32,000 nucleotides of DNA from Candidatus Heimdallarchaeota archaeon (GCA_030149205.1 JASBSB010000001.1:480001-512000), one strand, 5' to 3'; shown: positions 3,212-22,468, counted from the first letter of the stretch. Notes: generated by a model not told the origin, from the letters alone. Made by a program: numbers and translations.

Positions 3212-3919
3212 TCACTGATTTTTTCTAACGTCTGGATGCTTCCTTAAGTAATATACTTCATGTGTTATCAATAAAAGGTTAATTGCCAAAAGGACAACCC
3301 ATTGTGGATATGACCCAATTAGAGAAAAGAGAAAACTTCTTTCAATACTTGCTACTTCAATTGGGATATTAGGGAATTGATGATCACGGATTGATAAATA
3401 TGAAAATACTCTTGTGTTGTTTTTTAACAAAAGATAAATCGAAAAGTAAAGTTCTAATTCCGCCAAACTTGGACCCTTAAAGGTTAGATTAAAAATAGTA
3501 TATCGGAATTTCAAACTTGTATTCAGCTGATATGGATCAACTATCGTTCCTATAGTTTTATCCCTATTGTTCCCTATCTCTACCAAATAACCCCTTCCTA
3601 TAGAGGACCTGTTATATTCTTTCCAGAAGATTAAACCAGAGGAAGATATTCCTATTTCTTTGAAATTTAGTGAGGTTTTAGTCAAAGAAATATCAAGTGA
3701 AACGAAATAATTGACATGACTTGAAATATAAATGTGATCAGGGTATATGACCTTAGAAATTATCAGTGTAAAATTTGTGTTATTAACTCTTTTATCAACA
3801 AATTTCTCGTGATATTTCGGTTCGAGATTAAGAGTTGGGACTGAGATAAGAAAAGCTATTAGAACCAAAATTATGATAATTAATGCTAGATAAATAGATA
3901 TTATTTGTCTATTATTCAA
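3212..3919 (-). CDS. Hypothetical membrane-anchored surface protein (N- and C-terminal hydrophobic segments, beta-rich middle)
   Basis: 235-aa ORF with TTG start, GAGGT SD at 3931-3935 and TTTATATA box at 3960-3967. Six N-x-S/T sequons. No recognisable family. Confidence 0.65.
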   Translation of the reverse strand: MNNRQIISIYLALIIIILVLIAFLISVPTLNLEPKYHEKFVDKRVNNTNFTLIISKVIYPDHIYISSHVNYFVSLDISLTKTSLNFKEIGISSSGLIFWKEYNRSSIGRGYLVEIGNNRDKTIGTIVDPYQLNTSLKFRYTIFNLTFKGPSLAELELYFSIYLLLKNNTRVFSYLSIRDHQFPNIPIEVASIERSFLFSLIGSYPQWVVLLAINLLLITHEVYYLRKHPDVRKNQ

Positions 3920-4156: not shown

Positions 4157-6298
4157 CTAGAACAGTTTTAGTTGGTTTGATACTCCGAAAGCAATCAAAA
4201 ATACTGCCAGGGAAACCATCATTAAGGTTGCGTAATTTCTGACGATACCATCCTGCAATCTTCTTCCATATCTAGCTGTGGACCTTGTGAGAGCGGCGAA
4301 GCCATTAACCACTCCATCTATGATATTTTGGTCAAATCTGTCACTTTCCTCAGCTGTCATTAGAGCACCTTCGAATACTATGTCATTTATAATGAGCTTG
4401 TCAATTACATTATAATCAAAAGTTTTGAGTGCTTCAGCAGTGGGCATAGCTACATAATCAACAAACCCGTAGATTGATTTATCAACGTAAAATCTATTGT
4501 TTATGAAGTCTTCCGCCCAAAGCAATTTTTGCCTGATTGCTTGCAATGTGTCAGGATATTTCCAGTAAAACAGCAATGCAGCTAATGCACCAGAAATCGA
4601 GAATAGACTACCAATTAACCAACCTTCAACTTCACCTGCAGTACTTGGATGAACACCAAACAAGTCACCTAATATCTTCTCGAAATTTAGCGATTCAAGT
4701 CCAGGAATGTATCCAATTGAGAACCAGAGCGATTCAAGGATTACAAGGGATGCTACACCAATCAACGGTATTGCCATCAATTTTGAAGAATCTCTTGGGA
4801 TAACCTTCTCCTTATCAAACCTTTCCTCACCGAGGAAGACGACATAGAACATCCTCATTGAATAGAAAGCTGTGATGAATGCGGTAACAATTTCTAACCA
4901 CTGTAAGAAGACTGCACCTTCGACGTTCGAATTTGCGATTCCTAGAATAATTGAATCTTTTGACCAGAAACCACTGAAGGGTGGAATCCCCGCCAGAGCA
5001 ATAAGTCCTATACCCATAGTTATTCCTGTGATCTTCATGTGTCTAAACAACCCACCCATCTCGCGAATATCTTGAGTGTGGTGTAGGTTATGAATGACTG
5101 CTCCTGCACACAAAAATAGTAGTGATTTGAATGTTGCATGTGAGACAATGTGGTAAAACGCTGGGGAAGTAGCCCCCGCACCAATACCTGAAGCAATGTA
5201 CCCCAGTTGGGAAATTGTTGAGAATGCGAGTATTCTTTTGATATCAGTGGAAGTAAGAGCCATTAAAGCACCAAGCAGTGCAGTAATCGCACCTATCCAT
5301 GTGATGACAGTACCAGTTGGGAGGTAGAATCCGGTAAACCAACTCACAGTTGGTAAGGTAGCATGAAAATTGTTAACGTCATAAAATGTCATAAAGTTAC
5401 GAATTAGTAAGAATAAACCTGCTTTTACCATAGTTGATGAATGTAACAATGCTGATACAGGCGTTGGCCCTTCCATGGCCTCTGGTAACCAACCGAACAA
5501 TGGGAACTGTGAGGATTTACCAACAGCACCTATAAAAATCAATAAACTAGGCAGAAGAAAGTCATTCGCAGAGAGCGCTCCTGTATGAACAAGTTCCATT
5601 ATTTTCACATAAGAGACATCTCCACCTGTTAATCGCATGACAGTAAATATTCCCACCATAAAGCCTACATCACCAACTTTGTTGTAGAGAAATGCTTTCA
5701 TTCCTGCAGCACTTGCTGAGGCTTTATGCCAGTAGTATCCAATCAGAAAGTAGCTAGATACCCCAAGTAATTCCCAGAACACAAAACTGGTGATTAGATT
5801 TCCAGCGTATACAAATCCCCACATTGCAGCAGTAAAGAAGTTCATAAATGCAAAAAACCTTGTGATTTCAGGTTCACCGTGCATCATATAGTCTGATGCA
5901 TAGATGTGAATAAAGAGACCAATAACTGCGAGGACAAGACTCATCAGTATACTTAATGGATCAACCATTAATTCCCAGGTCAGCTTTGTTCCTACAATAA
6001 ATGGAACTGATCCATGAATATAGGTAGGACTACCCGAAACAAAGTTCACAAAATACTGTATTGCTAATATAATTGATAGGCCTGAAGAAATCGCAATAGA
6101 TCCAACACCTATAATACTACTAAATTTTGGATTAACCTCTCTTCCCTTGTAGATCTCTAAATATCTCCAGAATATCAAGAATACAGCAGCCAACATAGGA
6201 ATGAATATTGTCCAAGCTGCGATTACTATCATATTGTCAACAGAGACATTTCCAGTGAATGCCTCAAGAATTTTTAGTGTGGTTGGAGCTTCTGCCAT
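4157..6298 (-). CDS. nuoL: Complex I-like subunit L with extended lateral helix
   Basis: FVFWELLGVSSYFLIGY, GKSSQFPLFGWLPEAMEGPTPVSALLHSSTMVKAG, ILAFSTISQLGY, HATFKSLLFL and GIPPFSGFWSKD motifs, plus C-terminal LQDGIVRNY. GGAGGT SD. Confidence 0.95.
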   Translation of the reverse strand: MAEAPTTLKILEAFTGNVSVDNMIVIAAWTIFIPMLAAVFLIFWRYLEIYKGREVNPKFSSIIGVGSIAISSGLSIILAIQYFVNFVSGSPTYIHGSVPFIVGTKLTWELMVDPLSILMSLVLAVIGLFIHIYASDYMMHGEPEITRFFAFMNFFTAAMWGFVYAGNLITSFVFWELLGVSSYFLIGYYWHKASASAAGMKAFLYNKVGDVGFMVGIFTVMRLTGGDVSYVKIMELVHTGALSANDFLLPSLLIFIGAVGKSSQFPLFGWLPEAMEGPTPVSALLHSSTMVKAGLFLLIRNFMTFYDVNNFHATLPTVSWFTGFYLPTGTVITWIGAITALLGALMALTSTDIKRILAFSTISQLGYIASGIGAGATSPAFYHIVSHATFKSLLFLCAGAVIHNLHHTQDIREMGGLFRHMKITGITMGIGLIALAGIPPFSGFWSKDSIILGIANSNVEGAVFLQWLEIVTAFITAFYSMRMFYVVFLGEERFDKEKVIPRDSSKLMAIPLIGVASLVILESLWFSIGYIPGLESLNFEKILGDLFGVHPSTAGEVEGWLIGSLFSISGALAALLFYWKYPDTLQAIRQKLLWAEDFINNRFYVDKSIYGFVDYVAMPTAEALKTFDYNVIDKLIINDIVFEGALMTAEESDRFDQNIIDGVVNGFAALTRSTARYGRRLQDGIVRNYATLMMVSLAVFLIAFGVSNQLKLF

Positions 6299-6300
6299 AA

Positions 6301-6651
6301 TTAATCAACCTCCGTATTTTCAGCAAGAGAGAAGATATCTAAGACAGATATTTCTCCAAAGTTTCTGTATAATGAAATAAAAATTGCTAATGCAATTGCT
6401 GCTTCTGCAGCGGCAATTGCTACTACAATCATTGCAAACGCCCAGCCAAGATATTGATCACTAACAGCGGCATTAGAAGCTGCTGTAGATCTCAAATAGC
6501 TGTTGAAAGCTACAAAGTTGATGTTTGCTGAATTTAAGATAAGTTCAATTGAGAAAAGCAATCGAACAGCGCTTCTTTGGGTAAGAATACCAAGTATTCC
6601 TACTGAGAATAATACCATGGATAAAGCAACAAAATATTCTAAAGGTATCAT
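6301..6651 (-). CDS. nuoK: Complex I-like subunit K
   Basis: SIELILNSANINFV and AIAAAEAAIALA, with both conserved glutamates. ATGA overlap with nuoJ. Confidence 0.93.
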   Translation of the reverse strand: MIPLEYFVALSMVLFSVGILGILTQRSAVRLLFSIELILNSANINFVAFNSYLRSTAASNAAVSDQYLGWAFAMIVVAIAAAEAAIALAIFISLYRNFGEISVLDIFSLAENTEVD

Positions 6652-7214
6652 GTGGTAGTTTCCTCCGGATATAATTTGGGTTTTTCTTCGTAATCGTCTG
6701 AGTCATCTGACATTGCCAACTTTACCGAACCCAGAAGGGCAGCTAAGAATAGAGCGGATAAGAAGGGAAGAATAAATGCGAGCCCAAAATTTTCCTGCCA
6801 AATGTTGTGGAAGAACTGTTCTAACAGTGTGTTCCCATTGTTTGTTGTAAAGATGTTTCCGGTGCTCGCTGGGATTTGGGCGACTAGAGTCCCCAACAGA
6901 ACCAATAACAGAACTCCAGCAACAATAACTGGCATCACAAGATTGCTGTTAAAAAATTCGAAATTGTCCTCTGTGTAACTGGTTAACCTTCCAGCGAAAA
7001 GTAATAACACAGCTATACCTCCAGAATAAACACTTAGCTGTATAACCCAAAGAAATTCTGAATTTGCAAATAGAAAGACATTAGCCACTCCAATAAGCGT
7101 AAGAATCAGAAAAAGGGCGCTTCGGATAACTGTTCTAGAGTAAAGAACACCTATCCCCATTAACACTGTGTATATTGCATTCAAAACAAATAAAATCAAT
7201 AAGTAATCTACCAT
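6648..7214 (-). CDS. nuoJ: Complex I-like subunit J
   Basis: VIRSALFL, SEFLWVIQLSVYSGGIAVLLLF and C-terminal F..LSALFLAALLGSV helix. Lies between nuoH and nuoK. Confidence 0.9.
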   Translation of the reverse strand: MVDYLLILFVLNAIYTVLMGIGVLYSRTVIRSALFLILTLIGVANVFLFANSEFLWVIQLSVYSGGIAVLLLFAGRLTSYTEDNFEFFNSNLVMPVIVAGVLLLVLLGTLVAQIPASTGNIFTTNNGNTLLEQFFHNIWQENFGLAFILPFLSALFLAALLGSVKLAMSDDSDDYEEKPKLYPEETTT

Positions 7215-10252: not shown

Positions 10253-11416
10253 TCAAGACCGTGTTTTGATCTGCTCTAAATCCTGCTGAAGTCTCTCTGT
10301 CCTTTCAAGATTAAAGTCCAACACTGTATTTTTTATCTGTTCTTCTTTCAAAATAACTTTCTTACGAACATCTCTTGCGATTTGCATGATTTCCATTACT
10401 TTTGGAGAAAAGGGCAGACCCGCTAGTATGGCATTTAATGAGGGTTTCCCAATGGTTTTATACTCTTTTACTGAGTCCAATTTAATATATTTTAAGAAGG
10501 GTTTTTCGAGAAATGAATCTCTAAAACGGGTCGCTTCATAGCTATAATCAATGTTTTTGAATCCCTCCTTAAAAATTGAACAAAAGACCTTTTTAGATTT
10601 TAAGATTAATTCTTCAGGTAGATTTGTCTGTTCGATGACTGATTCAACCACCATATCCTTGTATCTGAAGTTTGTTTCACCACTGATAGATTCTTTTAAC
10701 TCTTTGTAAGTTATCACAGAGATTCCTGGTGTAAATAGAACCTCAAGCAGGTCTTGGTAACCCGCCTCAAAATCTGGTCTTACTGCTTCTTGGAATCCCG
10801 AGACAAATAAATTCGTAAGTCCTATCACAGTAGAATCCAAATTATAATCAACTGTCTCTGAAAAAGGAAGAGTATTTATCTCAGAGGGGGGATCATTATG
10901 AATTAAGATTAGATTGTTCCTAGTTGCAGTATCCGAGCCCGAAAGTTCGAATATAAGAGTGGAAATATTAAAATAAACCCTGGAACTCTCAAATTCCATA
11001 GGAAGGACAACTAAAATAGGGGGTATCTTGTTAAACTTTGTTTTGAGGATCTGACTTACCAGTAAAGTGGATGCTGTTCCTGTACCTCCACCTCCTGTAA
11101 TTATAAGAGTGATACCTTCTTTCTTTCCAAAGAGTTTCGATAATTCTCTTTCAATCTCCTCAGCATTCTCCAGAGCTGCTTCATAGGCCATGGATAAATT
11201 CCTTGCAAATCCTGCCTGGTTTTTGGTTATTTGAATCCTTCGAGAGTAGACTTCTCTTCCAGAATTAGAATGTTTTGAATTAATTGCCAAACTTTTCACA
11301 TTTATTTCTCCACCCTCTTGTATAGTGTGAATCATTTTTTCCCCAACTTTCTCTCCTATGTCTCCACATGCAATAATAGAAACATCAATATTTTTAGAAA
11401 ATAAATTAAACTTCAT
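10253..11416 (-). CDS. Divergent tubulin/FtsZ-superfamily GTPase, CetZ-like (paralog B)
   Basis: Motifs in the expected order: T1-like IIACGDIGEKVG, T2 LAINS, T3 AGFARNLSMA, T4 GGGGTGTA, T5 LPMEFE, T6 LIHND, T7-like FEAGYQDL, then a C-terminal LAGLPFSPKV..I..A helix. ATG 11416 follows an AGGTGA SD that overlaps the upstream stop; the ORF track starts at GTG 11425. Confidence 0.8.
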   Translation of the reverse strand: MKFNLFSKNIDVSIIACGDIGEKVGEKMIHTIQEGGEINVKSLAINSKHSNSGREVYSRRIQITKNQAGFARNLSMAYEAALENAEEIERELSKLFGKKEGITLIITGGGGTGTASTLLVSQILKTKFNKIPPILVVLPMEFESSRVYFNISTLIFELSGSDTATRNNLILIHNDPPSEINTLPFSETVDYNLDSTVIGLTNLFVSGFQEAVRPDFEAGYQDLLEVLFTPGISVITYKELKESISGETNFRYKDMVVESVIEQTNLPEELILKSKKVFCSIFKEGFKNIDYSYEATRFRDSFLEKPFLKYIKLDSVKEYKTIGKPSLNAILAGLPFSPKVMEIMQIARDVRKKVILKEEQIKNTVLDFNLERTERLQQDLEQIKTRS

Positions 11417-11425
11417 AATATTCAC

Positions 11426-12730
11426 CTAGCTGATTAGTTCTAATATCAATGGAATACCTCTCCAAGCATAGATCGTAAATAATGTTGAGAAGTAAAGCAA
11501 GCGGAACGGATTGATAGGGCTTGGTTTCATTCCGTGAATGTATTGTCGAATTATGAAAATGAATTGAAGGTCTGTCTGCAATTCTTTTTTCTTCCCCAGT
11601 GCAACATCAGTAATTTGTTCATAAATATAAGGATCTAATTCCATCAATGCTTTTTTACGGAACTTTCCCATATTGTTAGAGATCGTGATAATTGGTTTTA
11701 AAATCTGGCTAAATGAGAGGAGCAACGAGAACACCAATGCCCCTAATACTATATTTCGGATGATATTTATTTTAGTCAGAAGGATGGTAGGAGAACTTCC
11801 TAGGTTGAAAATATAAAATAAAGAAATTGGGGCGGTAATGAGTAAAACAAGAGAGTTTGACAGGAAAGTTGATGTAAGGAGCCCTTGTAAAGGAATGTCA
11901 CCAAGTGATTGAATTGATAATCCTGGTGTATCTGTTAAAACTTTGACCACCTCATAATTATTTTTTGACAGGATTGAATCATGTCCTTTATTGTAACCAC
12001 CTGCCCTTCTAGATATCTCATTTAACATTAAATTGTACAATTTTGAATTTGTTCTAACAAATATTAAAATTGAGAGGTTGATGTATATGACTATAAGTAC
12101 GCCTATGGAACCTATTAACCCAATTATTGAAGCAATGATAATATAGATGATATGAATTTTTAACATGAACATTATAAATAGAAACTCAACGTCTATCAGT
12201 ACTGTAATAAGAATGGAAATATAGAAAAGATTTTTTGAGAGTTTTTGACTATACATTTCGACAAATTGTGATTCAAAGACTTCTGCTATCCAGGGTGCTA
12301 ATTTATTTGATTGGATGGATTTGAATTTCTCATAAGTTGATCGAAAATATATCGGGCTATAAATTAACCCTGAAATTATAAGAATAGCTAAGAAGATAGC
12401 CACCCCTAAAGATTTCATTATGTAACCTGTCCAAATTAGTAGTCCAATATGGGTCATTGAAATAATCAATGGTAATAATATAAACAAATTTCGGTATGAG
12501 TTTTTTGACATAAAGAAGTACCCATTGACTGGGAGGTTTCGGAAAACATTGGGAAGCTTTAGAATGTTGCGAAATGGTGATTCCAATAAGTCTATTAAAT
12601 TTACGTATTGTGCATCTAAACCTTCGGGGGCTTCATTTTCAAATTTCTCTAAGAATGGTTCAAAACTGAATTGAATATCATTTGGTGTTTTTGGATTCGG
12701 AGTGGCATTGACAAATTTTTTTGTGTACAT
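11426..12730 (-). CDS. Uncharacterised polytopic membrane protein (about 6-7 TM helices)
   Basis: Several 20-30-aa hydrophobic stretches with soluble N-terminal, central and C-terminal loops. ATG 12730 follows a GAGGAG SD at the end of the upstream gene; the ORF track starts at 12769. Confidence 0.8.
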   Translation of the reverse strand: MYTKKFVNATPNPKTPNDIQFSFEPFLEKFENEAPEGLDAQYVNLIDLLESPFRNILKLPNVFRNLPVNGYFFMSKNSYRNLFILLPLIISMTHIGLLIWTGYIMKSLGVAIFLAILIISGLIYSPIYFRSTYEKFKSIQSNKLAPWIAEVFESQFVEMYSQKLSKNLFYISILITVLIDVEFLFIMFMLKIHIIYIIIASIIGLIGSIGVLIVIYINLSILIFVRTNSKLYNLMLNEISRRAGGYNKGHDSILSKNNYEVVKVLTDTPGLSIQSLGDIPLQGLLTSTFLSNSLVLLITAPISLFYIFNLGSSPTILLTKINIIRNIVLGALVFSLLLSFSQILKPIITISNNMGKFRKKALMELDPYIYEQITDVALGKKKELQTDLQFIFIIRQYIHGMKPSPINPFRLLYFSTLFTIYAWRGIPLILELIS

Positions 12731-12734
12731 TTTA

Positions 12735-14063
12735 TTAATCTCCTCTTCGAAGCCTAGCCGCCTCTGCATCTAGTTCTTCATTTAATTCACTCGCATCTTT
12801 TACATCAATTTCAGAGTTTACTTCTAACTTATCAATTTTAGGATTTCCCTTACTATAATTCGACCTCTCGATTTCTTTCTCTATCTGATGGACTCTAAAA
12901 TCTTCTGCATCTCTGAGAAGAACTCTTACTCTTTTTGGTGGTTCCAAACCTGACAATATTCCTGTAATTTCTGCACCTTCAGTCTCTTTTAGCAGATATT
13001 TTTGAAAGACGTCAATATTTTTAAAATGTTTGAAGATTTCAAAGTACATTTCACTACTAAAGAAGTTCTTCTCAGAAAACATCTGAACAAATCCTCGGGT
13101 AGCACTTTGTAAGCTAGTAGAAATTAAAGTTGACTTATCAAATTCTTCATACAAACTTTCACTTCCTAGTTTGTCAATCTTATCAACTTTCAGACCAAAA
13201 AAAGTCCCAATTCCTCTATAAACCTTGGTGGCTTCTAGAAGTTCATTCAAATCACTTGATACGCCATAACTCCTTTGCAATGTGCCAAGTAATAATTCAG
13301 AGAGAATTTTCCCTATTGAAGCGTTAATTCTCAATAGCAATGTTTCCTGAGAAAGTGCTCGATTTGCCTCAAAATAATGTTGATTATCAATTAACAGCAA
13401 ATTGCAATTTTCGGAACGATCAATTGGTGCAGAGTTAAGGCAATAAATACCATAGGCTGCTGTAAATTGAACAAGAGTTGGTTCGATCTCAAACGGTAAA
13501 ATCAGAACAGGGATTGGAGACTTTCCCAACTTTTTAAGTAACTTTACCAAAACTAGTCCTGCTCCTATTCCAGTACCTCCCGAACCCATAACTACAAACA
13601 CACTCTGATCTTCTAGTTGTTGGTCAAAGGCTTGGAAATATTCCGTAATCTTGACTTTAAGGGGTTCTATATCCTTAGTAAATAAACCCTCAGCTTTTTT
13701 AACCTGCTTTGCAGATGTGGAGACATTTGTTGAGTATTTGTAGATATAATCTAAATCTTGAGGATTTGTTGCAAAATCCCCCAAAAGTCCAACTCCCATT
13801 GACTTGTAACCTGGACAAAAATTTTTAATCGTGTGAGTGATCAAATTTACAATTTCAATCCCCGCACCACCGACCCCAATTATAGGCAGTTGGGGGTAAG
13901 GATAGAGCTGAACTTGAGATGGTTGTATAAAATTATATGACAAGAGGTCAGGTAATTTTGAATATAACTCGTCTTTAATCTTAATTTGTTCAAACATAGA
14001 TAAATTTGAGAGGGATATAACAGAACTCTGTGATTTTTTTCTTTGAAAGGGAAGTTGAACCAT
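12735..14063 (-). CDS. Divergent tubulin/FtsZ-superfamily GTPase, CetZ-like (paralog A)
   Basis: T1 IIGVGGAGIEIV, T4 GSGGTGIG, T5 LPFEIE, T6 LLIDNQ, T7 VSSDLNELL, C-terminal LSGLEPPKRV..L..A helix and an acidic tail. Likely start ATG 14063; the ORF track starts at TTG 14105. Confidence 0.82.
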   Translation of the reverse strand: MVQLPFQRKKSQSSVISLSNLSMFEQIKIKDELYSKLPDLLSYNFIQPSQVQLYPYPQLPIIGVGGAGIEIVNLITHTIKNFCPGYKSMGVGLLGDFATNPQDLDYIYKYSTNVSTSAKQVKKAEGLFTKDIEPLKVKITEYFQAFDQQLEDQSVFVVMGSGGTGIGAGLVLVKLLKKLGKSPIPVLILPFEIEPTLVQFTAAYGIYCLNSAPIDRSENCNLLLIDNQHYFEANRALSQETLLLRINASIGKILSELLLGTLQRSYGVSSDLNELLEATKVYRGIGTFFGLKVDKIDKLGSESLYEEFDKSTLISTSLQSATRGFVQMFSEKNFFSSEMYFEIFKHFKNIDVFQKYLLKETEGAEITGILSGLEPPKRVRVLLRDAEDFRVHQIEKEIERSNYSKGNPKIDKLEVNSEIDVKDASELNEELDAEAARLRRGD

Positions 14064-14219: not shown

Positions 14220-15653
14220 ATGACAAACTCTCATCAGAAAAAAGCCAGCATCATTGGCACTATTGGTCCAACATCAATAGATAAAGGAGTATTAGAAGAT
14301 CTTTTCCATCATGGTTTAGATATTACAAGAATCAATCTTTCTCATGGTGATCAAGCTACTGCCAAAAAATGGTTTGAAACTATTAGGTCAGTTGATGATA
14401 CTGTTCCAATAATGTTTGATTTGTCTGGCCCCAAGATGAGAATCGGAGAAATTAAATCAAAGTTAGTTCATTTAGTAACTGGGAACACTTTTGTCTTATC
14501 AAAAGAAAAAGTTAGTGGCACAGTAGAAAAAGTGGGTACAACATACCCAGAATTAATAGATTTGGCATCTGTTGGTAACACAATCTACCTTAATGATGGA
14601 TTAATCGAATTAAAGGTTAAAGAAAAAAGAGATGAGGAGCTAGTATGCAAAATCGTCAGAGGTGGTCCATTAAGTTCAAGAAAGGGGATTAATGCTCCTG
14701 AGGTACCCATAAAACTTTATGCGCCAACTGATAAGGATATTAAGGACATTGAATTCACTAAAGAATTAGAACCTGATTTTTATTCTGTTTCATTCGTCAG
14801 AAGGATTGAAGACCTGTTGAAGGTCAGAGGCATGCTATCAGATATGTCGTATCAGCCACCCTTAATAAGTAAAATCGAACACTCAGATGGTGTAAGAAAC
14901 TTTGATGAGATTCTAAAAGTTACTGATGTGGTGATGGTTGCACGAGGTGATCTTGGTGTTGAACTCGACCCTGCTGATATCCCGCTATTACAAAAGAAGC
15001 TGATTAAAAAATGTAACCAGGTTGGTAAACCAGTGATTGTCGCAACACAGATGCTCGAAACTATGGTCAGTTCTCCTCGCCCAACCAGGGCAGAAGCCTC
15101 AGATGTGGCCAATGCGATCTTAGATGGTGCGGATACTGTCATGCTGAGTGCTGAAACTGCCACAGGAATGTATCCTGTTAAAGCGGTAGATGTCATGAGT
15201 AGGATCATCAAAAAAGTCCAGGGAAACGTAAATGCTTTGCAGGTTAAATTTGATCCCACACTGTCTCCAAAATGGGATGCTGTTGCAAACGCTGCAGTCA
15301 TCTTAGCGAATTCATTGAATGCGAAAGCAATCATTGCAAACACCAGATCTGGGGATACAGCCAGGGCAATCTCCAAATACAGGCCAACTCAACCAATAAT
15401 TTCGATAACCCCTGAACTCCATACTTTCAGGAAGCTAGCAATATACTGGGGAGTTGTTCCAGAACTTTTGGAACAGAATTACTCAGATACAGATGATATG
15501 ATAGCTGCTTCGATCAATCTGGCATTTAAAAAGGGGTATATTCAGAAAGATGACATTGTAGTGTCAGTAGCTGGTTCTTTATTGGGTCTCCCCTATACTA
15601 CCAACCTTGTTCAATACCACCTGGTTAGTGACATCTTAAATGCTAGAACCTAA
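14220..15653 (+). CDS. pyk: Pyruvate kinase
   Basis: IIGTIGP, RINLSHG, DLSGPKMRIG, SKIE, MVARGDLGVE and ATQMLETMVSSPRPTRAEASDVANAILDGADTVMLSAETA motifs. Confidence 0.97.
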   Translation: MTNSHQKKASIIGTIGPTSIDKGVLEDLFHHGLDITRINLSHGDQATAKKWFETIRSVDDTVPIMFDLSGPKMRIGEIKSKLVHLVTGNTFVLSKEKVSGTVEKVGTTYPELIDLASVGNTIYLNDGLIELKVKEKRDEELVCKIVRGGPLSSRKGINAPEVPIKLYAPTDKDIKDIEFTKELEPDFYSVSFVRRIEDLLKVRGMLSDMSYQPPLISKIEHSDGVRNFDEILKVTDVVMVARGDLGVELDPADIPLLQKKLIKKCNQVGKPVIVATQMLETMVSSPRPTRAEASDVANAILDGADTVMLSAETATGMYPVKAVDVMSRIIKKVQGNVNALQVKFDPTLSPKWDAVANAAVILANSLNAKAIIANTRSGDTARAISKYRPTQPIISITPELHTFRKLAIYWGVVPELLEQNYSDTDDMIAASINLAFKKGYIQKDDIVVSVAGSLLGLPYTTNLVQYHLVSDILNART

Positions 15654-15789: not shown

Positions 15790-17802
15790 GTGAGTTTTGA
15801 TGATAAAGAATTATTTGGAGAATTAGCCAACAAGATCGGTGCTGAGGATTTGACAGATCCAGGATTGTTATTAGAACGGGGAGATAAAGAAAAAGCAAAT
15901 TCAAACAATGCAACAGCACAATCATTTTTTGAAAAAGCATTAGCTGCATCTACAGCCAAAGCTGCAAGGTTGGAAGAGAGTAGCCAGTATCGATCAGCAG
16001 CAGAAATGAACTTTATCGGTGCAGAGGCAAACCTAAGACTTGGGAAGACTGAAGAAGCAATGGGGTTATATAACAAGGTCGGAGAACAATTACTAATTGC
16101 GGGAAAAAATTACATCGATATGTATAATGAGTACTTTGACGGAGTCCTCTGTGTAACCTTAGGAAGCTTAGTAAACATATTACAAGGTAAAATTGATGAG
16201 GCAAAGAGTGTTTATTTAGAATACATAAAGAAACTAGATGAAGCGGGAGAATCAGGAAAACTTCAGCAAGGTGGAGAAACTCTTAAACAGACTATTTGGT
16301 CGGTCGGGTATATCCTCAAAGCATTGCAAGATACAGATCATGAGGCTCTTCAAAATGCACAACAACTTATCTCAACCAATATCAAGCCGAATTTAATCAA
16401 AGCAAAACTATCTAAAATAGCACCGTTACTCGATCAAGTGGTCTCATACACGTTAAATTACTTTCAATCTCAAATCAAGCTACCAAAGATTACTCATAGC
16501 CTGACTCTCCCTAATGAGATGCTTCTAAATCAGATATTTGATATTAAGATGACGATTGGAAATACTGGAGAAGGGGACGCTTCAAATCTACATGTGACAT
16601 TTAATTTGCCAGAAGACTTTGAAATATTGGGTGGTAAAAAAGAGATTTCAATATCTCAAGTCCCTAAAAATACGCAGGAAGAGATTAATCTAAAACTGAG
16701 AATATTATCTTCAGATAGTGAAGACAAGGTGATTCCCTTCAATGGGAAAATTACTTATCAAGATATGCTCCAGAATGATTTGGTTTCATTTATTGGTCCT
16801 TTAGATCTAGAGATAAGAGCAAACAGCCAAAAGGATGAATTACAAAAGAAATTTACCGAAATTAAAGGAGCAATTGAATCTTTATTTCTAGAGGTAAAAG
16901 ACCAGAAATATCCAAATTCGTTTATTCAAAATCTAACCAATAAAATGAACAAAATATTTGAAACCACTGAGAGTGAATTAAGAGTTGAACATTTTGAAAC
17001 TGTTAAAGCAAATCTAAGTCAACTTACAAATGAAAAGGAATGGCTACAAGAACTTTTCAGAGGAAACTCAGGTAAGATGATTCAAGAAGAACTAAAATCT
17101 AGCAAGGAAAAATATGCCAATGAACGTGTTTCATCACGTGAATCTGAGCTACAATCTCAGTTTGACAAGACAAAGGAAGAGCTTATTTACACTAAAGAAA
17201 AAGAAAAGGATGCAGCTTTACTAAGTCTTAGAAATGAAATTGAGGAAAAAAACAAAAAATTGGTTGAAGGTAAAGAAAAAGAATTTGAAGAGAGATTGAA
17301 GGCAGAAGAGAAAAAATATGAGATTAAATTAAAACAGGTTGTAAATGAAACGAAGGAACGTCAGGCTCTAGAACACCAACAAAAAATTGAGGTTATTAAC
17401 AATAAAAACGAAGTTGGTATCCGTCAGATTCAAGAAGAATATCAAAATGATCTTAAGACAAAAGTTGAGGAAATTAAGAAGCAAGAGGATATAAAGTTAG
17501 AAGAAGAGCTCCGTAAACTTAAATCAGAACACTATGAAGAGTTACGTAAATTAGAAGCGAGCCTACAAGAAGAAAAGGAGTCTGAAATTCAAAACATGAA
17601 AGCACAACATGCAAATGAAATCGATGCTTTGAAAAATCAATATTCAAGTCAACATTCGTCAGATTTACAAGAAAAAATCAGCTTTGCCAAGGATGAGACA
17701 AAAGCTGAACTCACCAGACAATTCCAATTAAAGGAAGAAGAATACAAAAAGGAAATTGAAGGGTTAAAACACAGAATAGCCCAGTTGGAGAGTAATTTTT
17801 AA
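15790..17802 (+). CDS. Soluble multidomain protein: TPR/SNAP-like helical repeat (aa ~25-228), Ig-like/CARDB-type domain (aa ~231-343), long coiled coil (aa ~345-670)
   Basis: GTG start with AGGTGAT SD. Ala-rich helical repeats, then I..TIGNTGEGDASNL.V...LP..F and G.ITYQD beta pattern, then an E/K/Q-rich heptad region. No TM segment or signal peptide. Confidence 0.75.
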   Translation: MSFDDKELFGELANKIGAEDLTDPGLLLERGDKEKANSNNATAQSFFEKALAASTAKAARLEESSQYRSAAEMNFIGAEANLRLGKTEEAMGLYNKVGEQLLIAGKNYIDMYNEYFDGVLCVTLGSLVNILQGKIDEAKSVYLEYIKKLDEAGESGKLQQGGETLKQTIWSVGYILKALQDTDHEALQNAQQLISTNIKPNLIKAKLSKIAPLLDQVVSYTLNYFQSQIKLPKITHSLTLPNEMLLNQIFDIKMTIGNTGEGDASNLHVTFNLPEDFEILGGKKEISISQVPKNTQEEINLKLRILSSDSEDKVIPFNGKITYQDMLQNDLVSFIGPLDLEIRANSQKDELQKKFTEIKGAIESLFLEVKDQKYPNSFIQNLTNKMNKIFETTESELRVEHFETVKANLSQLTNEKEWLQELFRGNSGKMIQEELKSSKEKYANERVSSRESELQSQFDKTKEELIYTKEKEKDAALLSLRNEIEEKNKKLVEGKEKEFEERLKAEEKKYEIKLKQVVNETKERQALEHQQKIEVINNKNEVGIRQIQEEYQNDLKTKVEEIKKQEDIKLEEELRKLKSEHYEELRKLEASLQEEKESEIQNMKAQHANEIDALKNQYSSQHSSDLQEKISFAKDETKAELTRQFQLKEEEYKKEIEGLKHRIAQLESNF

Positions 17803-18797: not shown

Positions 18798-19640
18798 CTA
18801 CAGTTCGTTTTTGAGACTAAAAATGTAATGATTTTTTTGATGTTTTGAGTCGGAAAGATAGTCGATTATTTGATATCCTCTCTTGAACAATTGAATTGCT
18901 GTTTCCCTAAAATACCTCCGCCAATAAATTGCCTGTTCTAAGTCTGCTACTCTAATATCTTGGTAATTTGCTGGAACTTCAACAGCCAAATAACTTTGTT
19001 GGGTCGAATTTAAACCCTCTTTTTTTTCGTTCCTCCTAAAGTCAATGATCTGATTTAAGTAAACAAGGTTTTCATATTCTCTTTCTGAAAATCCCTGCAT
19101 ACAGTTTTTTACAACCTCTGAATCAACAATCCATGAGACATACAATCGATCTGAAGAAACTCCCTCATATATTCCTATTCCTTTGGGTTTTCCATAATAG
19201 TTAACTCTATAATCTGCACAAACACAACCTAACTTGTGAAAATTCAAATATGCATTTTGGGGGAGAAGGGGGTCAAAAGTCCAATGAATCGTCCTAACTC
19301 TTGGATTTGTGGAATTCAAAACCAAATTATAGTGGGCTTTTTTCAATAGGAAGCCAATATTTTGATTTTGGTAATTTGGGTCAATCGCCATCATATGACT
19401 GTAATGCTTATCTGGGAACATGGGAAACCCATAAATATAACCAACAATTTTTTCTGGATCTTCTCTTGGTCTCGCTGTTAATACGATCCCGAAATCAGAG
19501 ACAGCTTTGATTTCAAAGGATGGTACAATTTCTAAGTCAGATAAATCCCAAGCTTTTCTCATAATTTCCATTATTTGATGAACTTCATCCATTGTAGAGA
19601 TACGTTTAATCAGATAGGAATCAGATACCACATTTTCCAA
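18798..19640 (-). CDS. GNAT-family acyltransferase (COG3375-like, N-succinyltransferase type)
   Basis: YSHMMAIDPNYQNQNIGFLLK, WTFDPL..NA.LN..KLG, Y..NYYG and SDRLYVSW, then LAVEVP and WR...R motifs. Start uncertain (TTG 19640). Confidence 0.75.
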   Translation of the reverse strand: MENVVSDSYLIKRISTMDEVHQIMEIMRKAWDLSDLEIVPSFEIKAVSDFGIVLTARPREDPEKIVGYIYGFPMFPDKHYSHMMAIDPNYQNQNIGFLLKKAHYNLVLNSTNPRVRTIHWTFDPLLPQNAYLNFHKLGCVCADYRVNYYGKPKGIGIYEGVSSDRLYVSWIVDSEVVKNCMQGFSEREYENLVYLNQIIDFRRNEKKEGLNSTQQSYLAVEVPANYQDIRVADLEQAIYWRRYFRETAIQLFKRGYQIIDYLSDSKHQKNHYIFSLKNEL

Positions 19641-20892: not shown

Positions 20893-21792
20893 ATGGACAT
20901 TTTGACGCTTTCTGTTCTGGTTTTATTGCTCTTCCTGATTATAGGCTTTAGCTCTTTCTGGTACATTATTAAACAGATTTATCTCCCACCTTATCCACCA
21001 CATCTTCGTGGAAAGATCCCCTCAATCCCAGATTTTGATGGATATATCGCACCAACCAAAAGTTGGGAGAAACGATTAAGAGTAAGAGTATGGGAGGTAG
21101 AGGGGAAAAAGATCATATTGTTTTTTCACGGGTGGGATTCTTCATCAGGATTTTTTAGCCAGTACGTGATGCAATTCAAAGAGAAAGGATGGACTGTGGT
21201 CACAGTAGACCTTAGATCAATGGGCGAAAGTGAAAGACAAGCTCTGGTTTCACAAATTGATTTTGCTGAAGATATTCAACAGGCTTTATCTTGGGTTCTT
21301 GAAAAATACCCATCAAAGTCAGACATAACAATTTATGGACACAGTATTGGAGGGGTTTCCTTGATTTTAGGGTTGGGATGGAAAATTATTGATCAGTCTA
21401 AACTGAATCAGATTGTGACTGAAGGAATATATGCAGATAGTAATTATCTTTTAAATCGAATGGTAAACAAATTTCCGTTTAAATCTCAAATTAAACCGAT
21501 TTTTTTGAAATTTCTAATGATAAGGTTAAAACAAGTTTACAAGAACAATCCACATAAATGGGTCCTTAACAGTACCACAAATCTGGATCCATTCCGACAA
21601 TTAAACAAAATTGATGTACCACTGTTAATGATCCATACTGAGAATGATGAAATCGTTAACTATTCTGAAACTGAACTGTTCAAACTTCACAAGAAAGCAA
21701 ATGTGAGATTCTTAAGTTTCAGGACTGGTGGTCACTTTCGCCTATCTTATGAAAATGAGTTCTTTGTAAAACTCTTTAACGAGATTGAATAA
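20893..21792 (+). CDS. Membrane-anchored alpha/beta-fold hydrolase
   Basis: N-terminal TM helix, FFHGW, VDLRSMGES, nucleophile elbow GHSIGG, then IHTENDEIV (Asp) and GGH (His). Confidence 0.85.
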   Translation: MDILTLSVLVLLLFLIIGFSSFWYIIKQIYLPPYPPHLRGKIPSIPDFDGYIAPTKSWEKRLRVRVWEVEGKKIILFFHGWDSSSGFFSQYVMQFKEKGWTVVTVDLRSMGESERQALVSQIDFAEDIQQALSWVLEKYPSKSDITIYGHSIGGVSLILGLGWKIIDQSKLNQIVTEGIYADSNYLLNRMVNKFPFKSQIKPIFLKFLMIRLKQVYKNNPHKWVLNSTTNLDPFRQLNKIDVPLLMIHTENDEIVNYSETELFKLHKKANVRFLSFRTGGHFRLSYENEFFVKLFNEIE

Positions 21793-22468
21793 TTTCTGAT
21801 GTAAGCGTAGCTTTTGCTCCAAACTTTCGTTCACTTCCACTTAAAAGACGTTTAATGTTTTCTCTATGAGTATAATAAAGCAATCCAATATAGAAATAGA
21901 TTAAAAAGAAATACATATCCATACCAGATGACCCTGTATTTAATAGAATAGCATCTTGTCTCATGAAAAATATTGGATAAAGTGCAACAACACCTATTAA
22001 GTTCCCTAAACTTGTGAAACGGGTGGATCCAACTACCAAGAGCCATATGACTAACAGAAACATGAAGGATACTGGGTCAATTCCAAGAATTACACCCGCT
22101 GTGGTCGCACCACCCTTTCCTCCTTTAAATTTTAAAAATATTGAAAAACAATGACCTATGACCACTAAACCTGATGAAATTACAACAATTACAGTAGGGT
22201 CTGCAAAAATCCCTGTGGAGGGAAAGGCATTAGTGTACCAATATGCAACCCTAACGACGAAGGTGCCCTTTAATACATCTACAATACCAGCAAATAGACC
22301 TACTTTAACTCCCATAGTCCTTGCAGCATTAGCACCACCCACATTCCCAGAACCTACCTTTGTAATATCAAAACCATAGCCATATCGAGCAATAACATAT
22401 GAAGTTGGAAATGACCCGACAATGTAGGATAGTACAATGATTATAATTTCATACACATACATACCCAC
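21776..22468 (-). CDS. plsY: Acyl-phosphate:glycerol-3-phosphate acyltransferase (PlsY family)
   Basis: All three PlsY motifs: GSFPT/GSGNVGGANAAR, GHCFSIFLKFKGGKGGAT and HRENIKRLLSGSE. Confidence 0.92.
   Translation of the reverse strand: MGMYVYEIIIIVLSYIVGSFPTSYVIARYGYGFDITKVGSGNVGGANAARTMGVKVGLFAGIVDVLKGTFVVRVAYWYTNAFPSTGIFADPTVIVVISSGLVVIGHCFSIFLKFKGGKGGATTAGVILGIDPVSFMFLLVIWLLVVGSTRFTSLGNLIGVVALYPIFFMRQDAILLNTGSSGMDMYFFLIYFYIGLLYYTHRENIKRLLSGSERKFGAKATLTSEIIQSR

What the first reader, a model, noticed from the sequence alone, without database searches (positions are those of the whole stretch)
10253..14063. Candidate new cytoskeletal system: two divergent CetZ/tubulin-like GTPases flanking a polytopic membrane protein
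Seen: three same-strand genes with near-zero spacing. Paralog A stops at 12735 and the membrane gene ATG is at 12730 after GAGGAG. The membrane gene stop (11426-11428) overlaps the AGGTGA SD of paralog B. Both soluble proteins show tubulin/FtsZ motifs T1 and T4-T7 in order and end in an L(S/A)G...P(K/R)...A helix resembling the CetZ C-terminal helix. They are very divergent from each other and from FtsZ, and no sepF or other division gene is nearby. Known: FtsZ, CetZ, TubZ, Odin tubulin and Asgard AtubA/B are described, but I do not recall a described paralog-membrane protein-paralog operon. Inference: a dedicated membrane-anchored two-component filament for cell shape, protrusion or membrane remodelling in an Asgard archaeon.
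Basis: partly seen in the sequence, partly recalled or inferred. Interest (0 to 1): 0.9.

Follow-up and report, generated by a model that had tools for sequence, protein, structure and literature searches.

The report
Heimdallarchaeal tubulin-like pair with membrane partner
Three tightly packed genes in a Heimdallarchaeota genome encode two very divergent tubulin/FtsZ-type proteins and an unknown multi-pass membrane protein; the trio is kept throughout one order of these close archaeal relatives of eukaryotes and has not been described, so it is a good candidate for a new membrane-bound cytoskeletal module.

Summary
On the minus strand lie A (12735-14063, 442 aa), M (11426-12730, 434 aa) and B (10253-11416, 387 aa), separated by 4 and 9 nt.

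In a 60-sequence tree A and B are sister clades (100/98). They sit outside FtsZ, haloarchaeal CetZ, two TubZ clades and Asgard tubulins.

M occurs in 45 of 47 genomes of the window's order. Elsewhere in Asgard it was found once in 353 genomes, on a contig that is probably mis-binned. These genomes carry only one canonical FtsZ.

GTP-binding motifs have decayed in A in one family and in B in another. Both are intact here, which fits two proteins working together. An M-B complex prediction gave only weak support.

The most likely reading is an A/B polymer docked on M, but polymerisation, binding and cellular role are inferred, not shown. All public copies are named "hypothetical protein", and I found no paper describing the operon. 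I rate it a new variant of a known kind, interest about 0.7.

The parts
12735..14063 (-). Gene A: 442-aa divergent tubulin/FtsZ-superfamily protein (P0001). It has an N-terminal extension of about 55 aa, a GTPase domain, an activation domain, a C-terminal helix and a tail of about 50 aa.
   Evidence: PF00091 scores 26.7 bits, below the 33-bit cut-off. The AF2 model has pLDDT 76 and pTM 0.81. Foldseek top hits are TubZ-Bc 4ei7 (E 7.6e-18), M. jannaschii FtsZ and CetZ. The A-family profile scores RepX/TubZ 59 bits and Methanosaeta CetZ 51 bits.
13860..13877 (-). A, T1 loop GVGGAG (aa 63-68)
   Evidence: Aligned to FtsZ GVGGGG. Lost in the A-like proteins of family f2.
13563..13586 (-). A, T4 signature GSGGTGIG (aa 160-167)
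   Evidence: Aligned to FtsZ GGGTGTG and one residue shorter.
13242..13259 (-). A, T7 loop SSDLNE (aa 269-274). Acidic residues occupy both positions equivalent to E. coli FtsZ D209 and D212.
14034..14063 (-). A, N-terminal peptide MVQLPFQRKK. Orthologues carry a clearer short basic-hydrophobic peptide (for example MAKKRSLFRFFKK, MSKRNRLFGLF), a possible membrane-targeting sequence.
   Evidence: This is inference only. The precedent is the N-terminal amphipathic helix of OdinFtsZ1, which binds membrane (PMC12583498).
12744..12794 (-). A, C-terminal tail helix (aa 424-440). It follows a low-confidence linker and is conserved within family f1. It is a candidate docking peptide.
   Evidence: The docking role is inferred.
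12740..12745 (-). GAGGAG ribosome-binding site for M, inside the end of A
   Evidence: Read from the sequence.
11426..12730 (-). Gene M: 434-aa polytopic membrane protein (P0002) of no known family.
   Evidence: No Pfam or NCBIfam hit for P0002. No meaningful Pfam hit among 21 family members: two stray single-member hits, E 7.5e-4 and 5e-3. No PADLOC hit. The Atlas search gave no lead. Public names are all 'hypothetical protein'. Found in 45 of 47 genomes of the order.
11708..12484 (-). M, six hydrophobic helices in three hairpins (aa 83-103, 108-128, 170-192, 195-219, 283-305, 319-341). A seventh hydrophobic helix lies at aa 413-431 (window 11438-11494).
   Evidence: Kyte-Doolittle scan. The outside loops are 4, 2 and 13 aa long and hold 1 Lys/Arg in total. 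The long loops hold 6-11 Lys/Arg each.
11885..12073 (-). M, cytoplasmic loop aa 220-282 holding the best-conserved motif of the family (GY.EG..SIL.K.NYEVV..L.DTPG.SI..LG.IP)
   Evidence: Alignment A5; coordinates.
11495..11707 (-). M, cytoplasmic loop aa 342-412 with the conserved F(K/R)xKALxELDPYI(F/Y) motif
   Evidence: Alignment A5; coordinates.
11422..11427 (-). AGGTGA ribosome-binding site for B, overlapping the M stop codon
   Evidence: Read from the sequence.
10253..11416 (-). Gene B: 387-aa divergent tubulin/FtsZ-superfamily protein (P0003).
11354..11371 (-). B, T1 loop ACGDIG (aa 16-21)
11075..11095 (-). B, T4 signature GGGGTGT (aa 108-114)
   Evidence: Degenerate (SSDGFST) in the B proteins of family f4.
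10751..10768 (-). B, T7 loop EAGYQD (aa 217-222). The Asp equivalent to FtsZ D212 is kept; the one equivalent to D209 is lost.
   Evidence: D222 is nearly invariant in the family.
10355..10429 (-). B, 'AGLP..PK' element and the long C-terminal helix (aa 330-354). A further terminal helix spans aa 367-384 (window 10265-10318).

Best explanation
A, M and B form one conserved chromosomal module, specific to one lineage. It encodes a membrane-associated tubulin-superfamily cytoskeletal system.

A and B arose by duplication before the order diversified. Both keep the complete tubulin/FtsZ fold. In this genome both keep the nucleotide-binding loops and at least the key acidic T7 residue.

I propose that A and B co-assemble head-to-tail into a mixed polymer or A/B heterodimer. 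GTP bound to one subunit would be hydrolysed with the help of the T7 loop of the next, as in FtsZ, CetZ, TubZ and tubulin. The assembly would be held on the cytoplasmic face of the membrane by M, whose roughly 260 extramembrane residues all face the cytoplasm. The short basic-hydrophobic N-terminus of A may add a second membrane contact.

The most probable cellular role is shaping, remodelling or constricting the membrane.

Shown here: gene structure, folds, paralogy, order-wide conservation, M topology by hydropathy, and the pattern of motif decay.

Inferred: polymerisation, A-B pairing, M docking and the cellular role.
For: 1. Operon-like packing: spacers of 4 and 9 nt, with ribosome-binding sites inside the preceding gene. 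There were no more terminator-like sites than chance would give.

2. Both proteins have the full two-domain fold plus a C-terminal helix.

3. A and B are each other's closest relatives. The B-family HMM scores B at 334-504 bits, A at 64-177 bits, and only one other protein anywhere in 400 Asgard genomes at E<=1e-8 (34 bits, an FtsZ-type protein). In the tree, the A+B clade has support 100/98, A 97/91 and B 95/92.

4. All three genes are co-inherited. M is in 45 of 47 genomes of the order. The B-family profile matched in 46 of 47: B itself in 44, and only A in two fragmented assemblies. A or A-like is in 42 of 47, and it lies near M-B (0-4 kb) on the same contig in most assemblies where the contig reaches it.

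5. GTP motifs decay reciprocally. Family f1 has both intact. Family f2 has A's T1 and T4 destroyed but B intact. Family f4 has B's T4 destroyed and A partly kept. Yet the degenerate genes stay as intact ORFs. This is expected if the two proteins act in one assembly where one nucleotide site can suffice.

6. In M, the long Lys/Arg-rich, best-conserved loops are predicted cytoplasmic.

7. The M+B complex prediction returned 'weak support'. The score was 0.39 (runs 0.35, 0.39, 0.47) against a best control of 0.00 out of 3. The pass mark was reached by 58 of 80 solved complexes and 2 of 110 mismatched pairs. However, scores of 0.60 or under were seen in only 7 of those 80 solved complexes and in both mismatches that passed. 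The runs agree in at least 77% of contacts and the partner pLDDT is at least 72. My own alignments were used, so these counts hold only roughly.

8. Precedents: OdinFtsZ1 binds membrane through an N-terminal amphipathic helix (PMC12583498). The polytopic protein CdpA anchors FtsZ2 in haloarchaea (PMC12126565).
Against: - No experiment or transcript data exist for these genes.
- The M-B prediction is weak by the tool's own calibration, and no interface was reported.
- GTP-binding motifs are dispensable in one paralogue or the other in some lineages, and in f4 both are eroded. Nucleotide-driven dynamics may therefore not be central.
- B in family f1 lacks the D209-equivalent residue in T7.
- The window's own A has only a weak N-terminal basic-hydrophobic peptide.
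- M could not be modelled on its own, so nothing is known of its fold.
Confidence: 0.5

Rival explanations
1. The module is a derived cell-division apparatus. It would replace the missing second FtsZ and, in the window's family, the missing SepF anchor. A/B would supply the constriction or ring-organising polymer and M the transmembrane anchor. This is a more specific version of the best explanation.
For: - Nearly every genome of the order with a match (41 of 45) shows exactly one canonical FtsZ; the few second PF00091 matches are A or B themselves, and G008 also has two Atub-type tubulins. A sister family (f7) has two in 11 of its 12 genomes.
- SepF was not found in any of 12 genomes of the window's family, either with PF04472 or with a SepF protein from the sister family f2.
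- SepF is reported to accompany FtsZ throughout archaea (PMC12583498).
- CdpA shows that archaeal FtsZ rings can use polytopic anchors.
Against: - Family f2 has SepF as well as M-B (28 of 31 genomes).
- Family f5 has neither SepF nor the module, so the distributions are not complementary.
- A and B branch on the CetZ/TubZ/tubulin side of a 100/100 split from all FtsZs, so they are not simply fast-evolving FtsZ2.
- No division genes lie nearby.
- Failing to detect a 110-aa SepF in draft genomes is weak evidence of absence.
Confidence: 0.2
2. A and B do not form filaments. They would be GTPase or pseudo-GTPase regulatory subunits of a membrane complex in which M is the working part (a channel, transporter, sensor or lipid-handling protein).
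For: - GTP-binding loops are lost in A-like (f2) and in B (f4), yet the genes persist.
- M is the best-conserved of the three. Its family-profile scores are roughly 490-570 bits across families.
- The M-B pair is the invariant core of the module.
Against: - Both proteins keep the complete polymerising fold, including the activation domain and a conserved T7 acidic residue.
- To my knowledge, every characterised family with this fold forms protofilaments.
- M has no similarity to any transporter or enzyme family. Its external loops are only 2-13 aa long.
Confidence: 0.17
3. The genes are a TubZ-type (type III) DNA-partition system, or the remnant of an integrated plasmid or virus. A/B would segregate DNA.
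For: - Both family profiles score best against Bacillus RepX/TubZ (66 and 59 bits).
- Foldseek's top hit for both models is TubZ-Bc.
- The remote sequence hit P0020 belongs with clostridial plasmid TubZ-like proteins.
Against: - No TubR-like small DNA-binding gene is adjacent. The neighbours are M, pyruvate kinase and an HD hydrolase. By contrast, the pBtoxis TubZ sits next to a winged-helix gene.
- The location is chromosomal and syntenic with pyruvate kinase in three families.
- The A and B trees follow the genome families, as in vertical descent.
- The A+B clade lies outside both TubZ clades.
- No integrase or mobile-element genes are in the window.
Confidence: 0.06

Closest known systems
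CetZ (archaeal tubulin-like cell-shape proteins; PDB 4b45, 4b46, 3zid)
   Different: The five haloarchaeal CetZ form their own 100/100 clade that excludes A and B. The B profile matches CetZ2 at only 31 bits. CetZ genes are not paired with a paralogue and a polytopic membrane gene; the contexts of CetZ and CetZ-like genes are described as unrelated in PMC9871819. The taxonomic range also differs: Euryarchaeota for CetZ, one Heimdallarchaeial order here.
TubZ/RepX (type III plasmid and phage partition GTPases; PDB 4ei7, 2xka)
   Same: TubZ/RepX is the best sequence-profile match for both families (66 and 59 bits) and the top Foldseek hit for both models. It also has a long C-terminal helix and tail.
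   Different: Here there is no TubR adaptor or centromere. The location is a chromosomal housekeeping context, and the partner is a membrane protein. The A+B clade lies outside both TubZ clades in the tree.
FtsZ with its membrane anchors (SepF, FtsA, ZipA; haloarchaeal CdpA)
   Same: The logic is the same: a tubulin-superfamily polymer tethered to the cytoplasmic face of the membrane by a dedicated protein. CdpA is polytopic and archaeal. OdinFtsZ1 uses an N-terminal amphipathic helix, which is comparable to the N-terminus of A.
   Different: A and B score 29 and 26 bits against the FtsZ model, whose cut-off is 295, and they lie across a 100/100 split from FtsZ. M has 6-7 helices with structured, conserved loops. 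CdpA has 4 helices, a disordered linker and a small C-terminal domain. Homology between M and CdpA was not tested. Here the anchor gene sits between or beside the polymer genes.
Alpha/beta-tubulin-type heterodimers (eukaryotic tubulin, BtubA/B, Asgard AtubA/B)
   Same: Both involve two adjacent paralogous genes of the superfamily. The unequal nucleotide sites in some lineages recall the non-exchangeable and exchangeable sites of tubulin dimers. AtubA/B are also encoded as an overlapping gene pair (PMC13394414).
   Different: A and B are not tubulins. PF00091 scores are 27-36 bits, against 191-197 bits for the Atub-type pair in relative G008, and the clades are separate. A membrane gene is interposed. 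There is no evidence for tubules.
FtsZ-like families FtsZl1 and FtsZl2 (Makarova and Koonin 2010, PMC2875224)
   Same: They are also divergent superfamily members, proposed from genome context to act in membrane remodelling.
   Different: FtsZl1 proteins are about 1000 aa, with coiled coils and no recognisable T6-T7 or C-terminal domain, and their neighbours are vWA, GTPase and OmpA genes. FtsZl2 is proteobacterial. A and B are 387-442 aa with the complete fold and different neighbours.
'Asg.Tub' (PMC9871819) and the 'CetZ-related Asgard archaeal clade' (bioRxiv 10.64898/2026.02.15.705738)
   Same: These are uncharacterised CetZ-like Asgard sequences noticed in phylogenies, with unknown neighbouring genes. 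Some A or B sequences may be among them.
   Different: Asg.Tub is described as joining Heimdallarchaeia and Lokiarchaeia, with coiled-coil neighbours. The A/B/M families were not found in any Lokiarchaeial genome searched. Neither paper describes a paralogue-membrane protein-paralogue operon. I could not establish whether the sets are the same, because no accession lists were read.

Membership tests
Tubulin/FtsZ superfamily | N-terminal Rossmann-type GTPase domain with T1-T6 loops, including the GGGTG-type T4 signature | tested here: met
   B scores 36.4 bits on PF00091, above the 33-bit cut-off. A scores 26.7 bits here, but A orthologues score 44-54 bits. Motifs aligned.
Tubulin/FtsZ superfamily | Second (activation) domain following helix H7, with a T7 loop carrying an acidic residue | tested here: met
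   Models. Full-length structural matches. T7 reads SSDLNE in A and EAGYQD in B.
Tubulin/FtsZ superfamily | GTP-dependent head-to-tail polymerisation | not testable with these tools
   Needs biochemistry or electron microscopy.
FtsZ (cell division) | Reaches the family model's score and branches with FtsZ | tested here: not met
   TIGR00065 gives 29 and 25.7 bits against a cut-off of 295.2. A 100/100 split separates all FtsZ from the A+B side of the tree.
CetZ | CetZ-type fold with a C-terminal helix packed on the body | tested here: met
CetZ | Branches inside the CetZ clade | tested here: inconclusive
   A+B lies outside the clade of five haloarchaeal CetZ (100/100). However, no methanogen or other CetZ-like sequences could be included, and deeper relations among CetZ, TubZ, Atub and A/B are unresolved (83/59).
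TubZ / type III partition system | Adjacent TubR-type DNA-binding adaptor and centromere, on a plasmid or phage | tested here: not met
   The neighbours are M, pyruvate kinase and an HD hydrolase. Chromosomal synteny holds across families. For comparison, pBtoxis TubZ sits beside a winged-helix gene.
TubZ / type III partition system | Branches with TubZ | tested here: not met
   A+B (100/98) lies outside both TubZ clades (100/98 and 99/99). TubZ-Bc is nevertheless the best profile hit.
Bona fide tubulins (Odin tubulin, AtubA/B, BtubA/B, eukaryotic) | Strong match to the tubulin domain and placement with tubulins | tested here: not met
   27-36 bits here against 191-197 bits for the Atub-type pair of G008. 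The B profile scores AtubA at 22 bits. The clades are separate.
FtsZl1 / FtsZl2 | FtsZl1: about 1000 aa with coiled coil, no T6-T7 or C-terminal domain, and vWA/OmpA/GTPase neighbours. FtsZl2: proteobacterial, with a 300-aa C-terminal region. | tested here: not met
   The architecture and neighbours differ (compared with the description).
CdpA-like archaeal membrane anchors (for M) | Four N-terminal transmembrane segments, a disordered linker and a small C-terminal domain; homology to HVO_0739 | not tested
   No CdpA sequence was available in the collections. M's architecture (6-7 helices with structured, conserved loops) differs from the published description.

The most novel reading that the evidence does not exclude
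A and B form an obligate heterodimer that polymerises directly on a dedicated polytopic receptor, M. Labour would be divided between one working and one degenerate nucleotide site, echoing alpha/beta-tubulin. This would be a membrane-integrated tubulin-superfamily cytoskeleton invented in Heimdallarchaeales. In lineages with a single FtsZ and no detectable SepF, it would have taken over membrane constriction or shaping.
Probability: 0.25. Interest if true: 0.85.

Novelty: new variant of a known kind. Interest (0 to 1): 0.72.

Why it matters
Heimdallarchaeia are the closest known archaeal relatives of eukaryotes. Their cytoskeletal inventory is central to models of how the eukaryotic cell arose. 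Work so far has concentrated on actin, ESCRT, FtsZ and the rare true tubulins.

This module is different. It is a distinct tubulin-superfamily clade, present in essentially every genome of one order rather than in about 1% of genomes. It is duplicated into two co-inherited paralogues and genetically tied to an unknown membrane protein.

If A and B co-polymerise on M, this would be a new way of coupling a tubulin-like polymer to a membrane. It would also be a natural series for studying how a two-subunit polymer tolerates loss of one nucleotide site, because the series runs from both sites intact, to A degenerate, to B degenerate.

The proteins are small and soluble, so the proposal can be tested directly in vitro.

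Tried and rejected
- The word-indexed homologue search with B alone found only B itself. The exhaustive search found just 19 clusters.
- The search for related loci with the 11-sequence alignment failed for lack of a conserved stretch. A 5-sequence alignment worked.
- tblastn of B against plasmids found no match.
- tblastn of the genome's FtsZ against plasmids returned only FtsZ. CetZ references had to be reached through a Natronorubrum replicon.
- The Atlas search for M returned only its own family and unnamed clusters.
- PADLOC gave nothing for A, M or B, so a defence-system reading has no support.
- The sigma-70 promoter scan was uninformative: 20 sites against 19.1 expected. It is also the wrong promoter model for an archaeon.
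- I checked whether the divergent tubulin-family paralogues of the sister family f5 are orthologues of A or B. They score only 29 and 13 bits on the B profile, branch elsewhere, and have different neighbours (about 1150-aa proteins).
- The single copy of the module outside the order (G052, 8% contamination) sits on a 4-kb contig. Its A is nearly identical in tree position to a family-f1 sequence, so I treat it as a probable mis-binned contig rather than a transfer.
- The GTDB names of the order and families are not given by the tools. 'Heimdallarchaeales' is my inference, based on record titles and the presence of LC_2.

Full report
**What is in the sequence**

Three genes lie on the minus strand:
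- A: 12735-14063, 442 aa.
- M: 11426-12730, 434 aa.
- B: 10253-11416, 387 aa.

A's TAA stop is 4 nt before M's ATG, and a GAGGAG site lies 9 nt upstream of that ATG, inside A. M's TAG stop overlaps an AGGTGA site, and B's ATG follows 9 nt after the stop. No excess of terminator-like sites separates the genes.

The remaining genes of the 32-kb window are housekeeping. They include complex-I subunits, a parvulin-type isomerase, an AlaX-like editing protein, an HD hydrolase, pyruvate kinase, BacA, tRNA-intron endonuclease, a PlsY-like acyltransferase, RidA, a RadA-like protein, an ABC transporter and a Cys/Met PLP enzyme. No division genes are present.

**The organism**

The window is contig 4 of a 3.3-Mb, 12-contig genome that is 93.5% complete. 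The closest public relatives are titled Candidatus Heimdallarchaeota. The M family includes HeimC2_02670 of Heimdallarchaeota LC_2.

**What A and B are**

- B reaches the Pfam Tubulin domain cut-off (36.4 bits against 33). A does not (26.7 bits), though its orthologues do (44-54 bits).
- Against the FtsZ equivalog model they score 29 and 26 bits, where 295 is needed.
- AlphaFold2 models built from family alignments are confident. B has pLDDT 85.5 and pTM 0.83; A has pLDDT 76 and pTM 0.81. A's N-terminal 50 residues and its linker 392-404 are disordered.
- Both models show the GTPase domain, the activation domain and a long C-terminal helix.
- Foldseek places Bacillus cereus TubZ first for both (E 7e-17 and 8e-18), followed by CetZ and FtsZ.
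- Family profiles searched against PDB sequences give RepX/TubZ-Bc as the best hit: 66 bits for B and 59 for A. Next come CetZ (31 for B, 51 for A), FtsZ (about 30) and AtubA (22 for B).
- Aligned to E. coli FtsZ, both proteins carry T1, T4, T5, T6 and T7 in order. A has acidic residues at both catalytic T7 positions (SSDLNE). B keeps the D212 equivalent only (EAGYQD).

**Relationship between A and B and to known families**

The B-family HMM scored against 400 Asgard genomes gives B 334-504 bits and A 64-177 bits. Only one other protein matched at E<=1e-8 (34 bits), and in the tree it is an FtsZ-type protein.

I assembled named references:
- TubZ of pBtoxis and three relatives.
- A Natronorubrum CetZ2 orthologue (501 bits to 4b45) and four further haloarchaeal CetZ.
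- Bacterial, haloarchaeal and Asgard FtsZ.
- An Atub-type tubulin pair from relative G008.
- The divergent paralogues of sister family f5.

In the IQ-TREE analysis (60 rows, 380 columns, LG+C20):
- A together with A-like and B forms a clade (100/98). A (97/91) and B (95/92) are each monophyletic.
- This clade is separated from all FtsZ by a 100/100 branch.
- It lies outside the haloarchaeal CetZ clade (100/100), both TubZ clades and the Atub pair.
- Its position among those groups is unresolved (83/59).

A and B are therefore a distinct family that duplicated before the order diversified. An exhaustive HMMER search of 1.84 billion representative proteins found only 19 clusters for B at E<=0.001. 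The remote ones are FtsZ-like or TubZ-like.

**The membrane protein**

M has no Pfam, NCBIfam or PADLOC hit. Among 21 family members there were only two stray single-member Pfam hits. The language-model atlas gave no lead. Every public copy is named 'hypothetical protein'.

Hydropathy shows three helical hairpins with outside loops of 4, 2 and 13 residues, plus a C-terminal hydrophobic helix. The long, Lys/Arg-rich loops and the 82-residue N-terminus fall on the other side, which the positive-inside rule assigns to the cytoplasm. The most conserved parts of the family are two of these loops, residues 220-282 and 342-412.

**Conservation**

M is found in 45 of 47 species-representative genomes of the window's order. 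The two misses are 76% and 87% complete. In the other 353 Asgard genomes searched, it was found once. That one case is a 4-kb contig in a bin with 8% contamination, and its A sits beside a family-f1 sequence in the tree. I read it as mis-binning.

The B-family profile matched in 46 of 47 genomes of the order. B itself is in 44. In two fragmented assemblies only A was recovered.

Gene order differs by family:
- The order A-M-B is colinear in families f1 and f4. In f3 the contig ends after M.
- In the largest family, f2, M-B stays colinear. An A-like gene lies inverted on the far side of the neighbouring pyruvate kinase gene, or directly divergent from M. It is intact in 27 of 31 genomes and near M-B on the same contig in most assemblies where the contig reaches it.

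Pyruvate kinase is the conserved neighbour. Other flanking genes are metabolic. This is a stable chromosomal locus, not a mobile element.

**A pattern that bears on mechanism**

The GTP-binding loops are not uniformly kept:

| Family | A | B |
|---|---|---|
| f1 (includes this genome) | intact | intact |
| f2 | T1 and T4 destroyed (e.g. FAGNKE, NNAFLLG) | canonical |
| f4 | partly retained (AGSTGVG or SDSIGVG) | T4 reads SSDGFST or SSGTFSS |

The degenerate genes remain full-length and linked to the module. The simplest reading is that A and B act in one assembly in which a single nucleotide site can suffice, as in heterodimeric tubulins. This is inference.

A orthologues also begin with a short basic-hydrophobic peptide, such as MAKKRSLFRFFKK or MSKIGSLFGKKKRK. 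It is weaker here (MVQLPFQRKK). The peptide resembles known membrane-targeting sequences. OdinFtsZ1 binds membranes in this way (PMC12583498).

**Direct test of M-B binding**

The one complex job was run on full-length M and B with family alignments. It returned 'weak support':
- Score 0.39 (runs 0.35, 0.39, 0.47); best of three controls 0.00.
- The pass mark was reached by 58 of 80 solved complexes and 2 of 110 mismatched pairs.
- Scores of 0.60 or under were seen in only 7 of those 80 solved complexes and in both mismatches that passed.
- The runs agree in at least 77% of contacts, and the partner pLDDT is at least 72.
- No interface was reported.

Given order-wide adjacency of the two genes, this nudges the odds up but settles nothing.

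**Context in the lineage**

Nearly all genomes of the order (41 of 45 with a match) carry exactly one canonical FtsZ at this threshold. The extra matches are A or B themselves, plus the tubulin pair in G008. Sister family f7 carries two canonical FtsZ in 11 of its 12 genomes. Family f5 carries one FtsZ plus one or two other divergent paralogues, which sit next to proteins of about 1150 aa and are not kin of A or B.

SepF was detected in f2 (28 of 31) and f7 (12 of 12). It was not detected in the window's family with the Pfam model, nor with an f2 SepF protein as query (0 of 12). This leaves room for a division-related role. However, the distributions are not complementary, because f2 has both SepF and the module while f5 has neither.

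**Comparison with the literature**

- FtsZl1 and FtsZl2 have different architectures and neighbours.
- Santana-Molina et al. (PMC9871819) report an uncharacterised CetZ-like 'Asg.Tub' group joining Heimdallarchaeia and Lokiarchaeia, with unknown coiled-coil neighbours.

Some A or B sequences may be in those sets. Neither paper describes the paralogue pair, the membrane partner or the motif decay, and the families here were not found in Lokiarchaeia. Recent papers on Asgard tubulins concern true tubulins.

**Verdict**

It is wrong or unproven in detail. The proteins are CetZ-like in fold but not members of the sampled CetZ clade. TubZ is the nearest known family by sequence. The gene order is not universal. 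No function has been shown.

I rate it a new variant of a known kind, with high interest for archaeal cell biology and eukaryogenesis.

Noticed in passing
L059:3098-4399 and L059:4383-5681 (G008:C52, same family as the window): This relative also carries an adjacent, slightly overlapping pair of bona fide tubulin genes (PF00091 197 and 191 bits). They resemble the AtubA/B operon described for Kariarchaeaceae. A 385-aa protein with about 5 hydrophobic segments follows at 5852-7009. This genome therefore has FtsZ, A/M/B and true tubulins together.
   Followed up: partly
L052:5420-6745 with L052:6758-10180; L053:6404-7774 with L053:2849-6364 (G057, sister family f5): Genomes of family f5 carry one or two other divergent tubulin-family paralogues (441-470 aa, PF00091 60-76 bits). 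Each lies next to a 1140-1171-aa protein without a Pfam hit. They are not kin of A or B. This may be the published 'Asg.Tub' group and is another uncharacterised module.
   Followed up: partly
Whole genomes of the class: SepF was not detected in families f1, f3, f4, f5 and f6 although all have FtsZ. It was detected in f2 and f7. In f1 it was also not found using an f2 SepF protein as query. SepF is reported to accompany FtsZ throughout archaea.
   Followed up: partly
window 21776-22468 (-): A PlsY-type glycerol-3-phosphate acyltransferase (PF02660, E 1e-42). This is a bacterial-type ester-lipid synthesis enzyme in an archaeal genome.
   Followed up: no
window 15790-17802 (+), 23192-24538 (-), 3212-3919 (-), 18798-19640 (-): Four sizeable ORFs (670, 448, 235 and 280 aa) have no Pfam match. 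The 670-aa ORF lies just beyond pyruvate kinase, near the module.
   Followed up: no
L033:4077-5492 (G039:C13): In one f2 genome, a TnpB/Cas12f-like gene (PF07282) is inserted between pyruvate kinase and M. It splits the A-like gene further from M-B without disrupting either.
   Followed up: no
L058 (G052:C52, 4055-bp contig): A complete A-M-B copy sits in a bin of another family with 8% contamination. Its A is almost identical in tree position to a family-f1 sequence, so it is probably a mis-binned contig.
   Followed up: partly
window 14852-15376 (-): A 174-aa ORF lies antisense inside the pyruvate kinase gene. It is most likely spurious.
   Followed up: no
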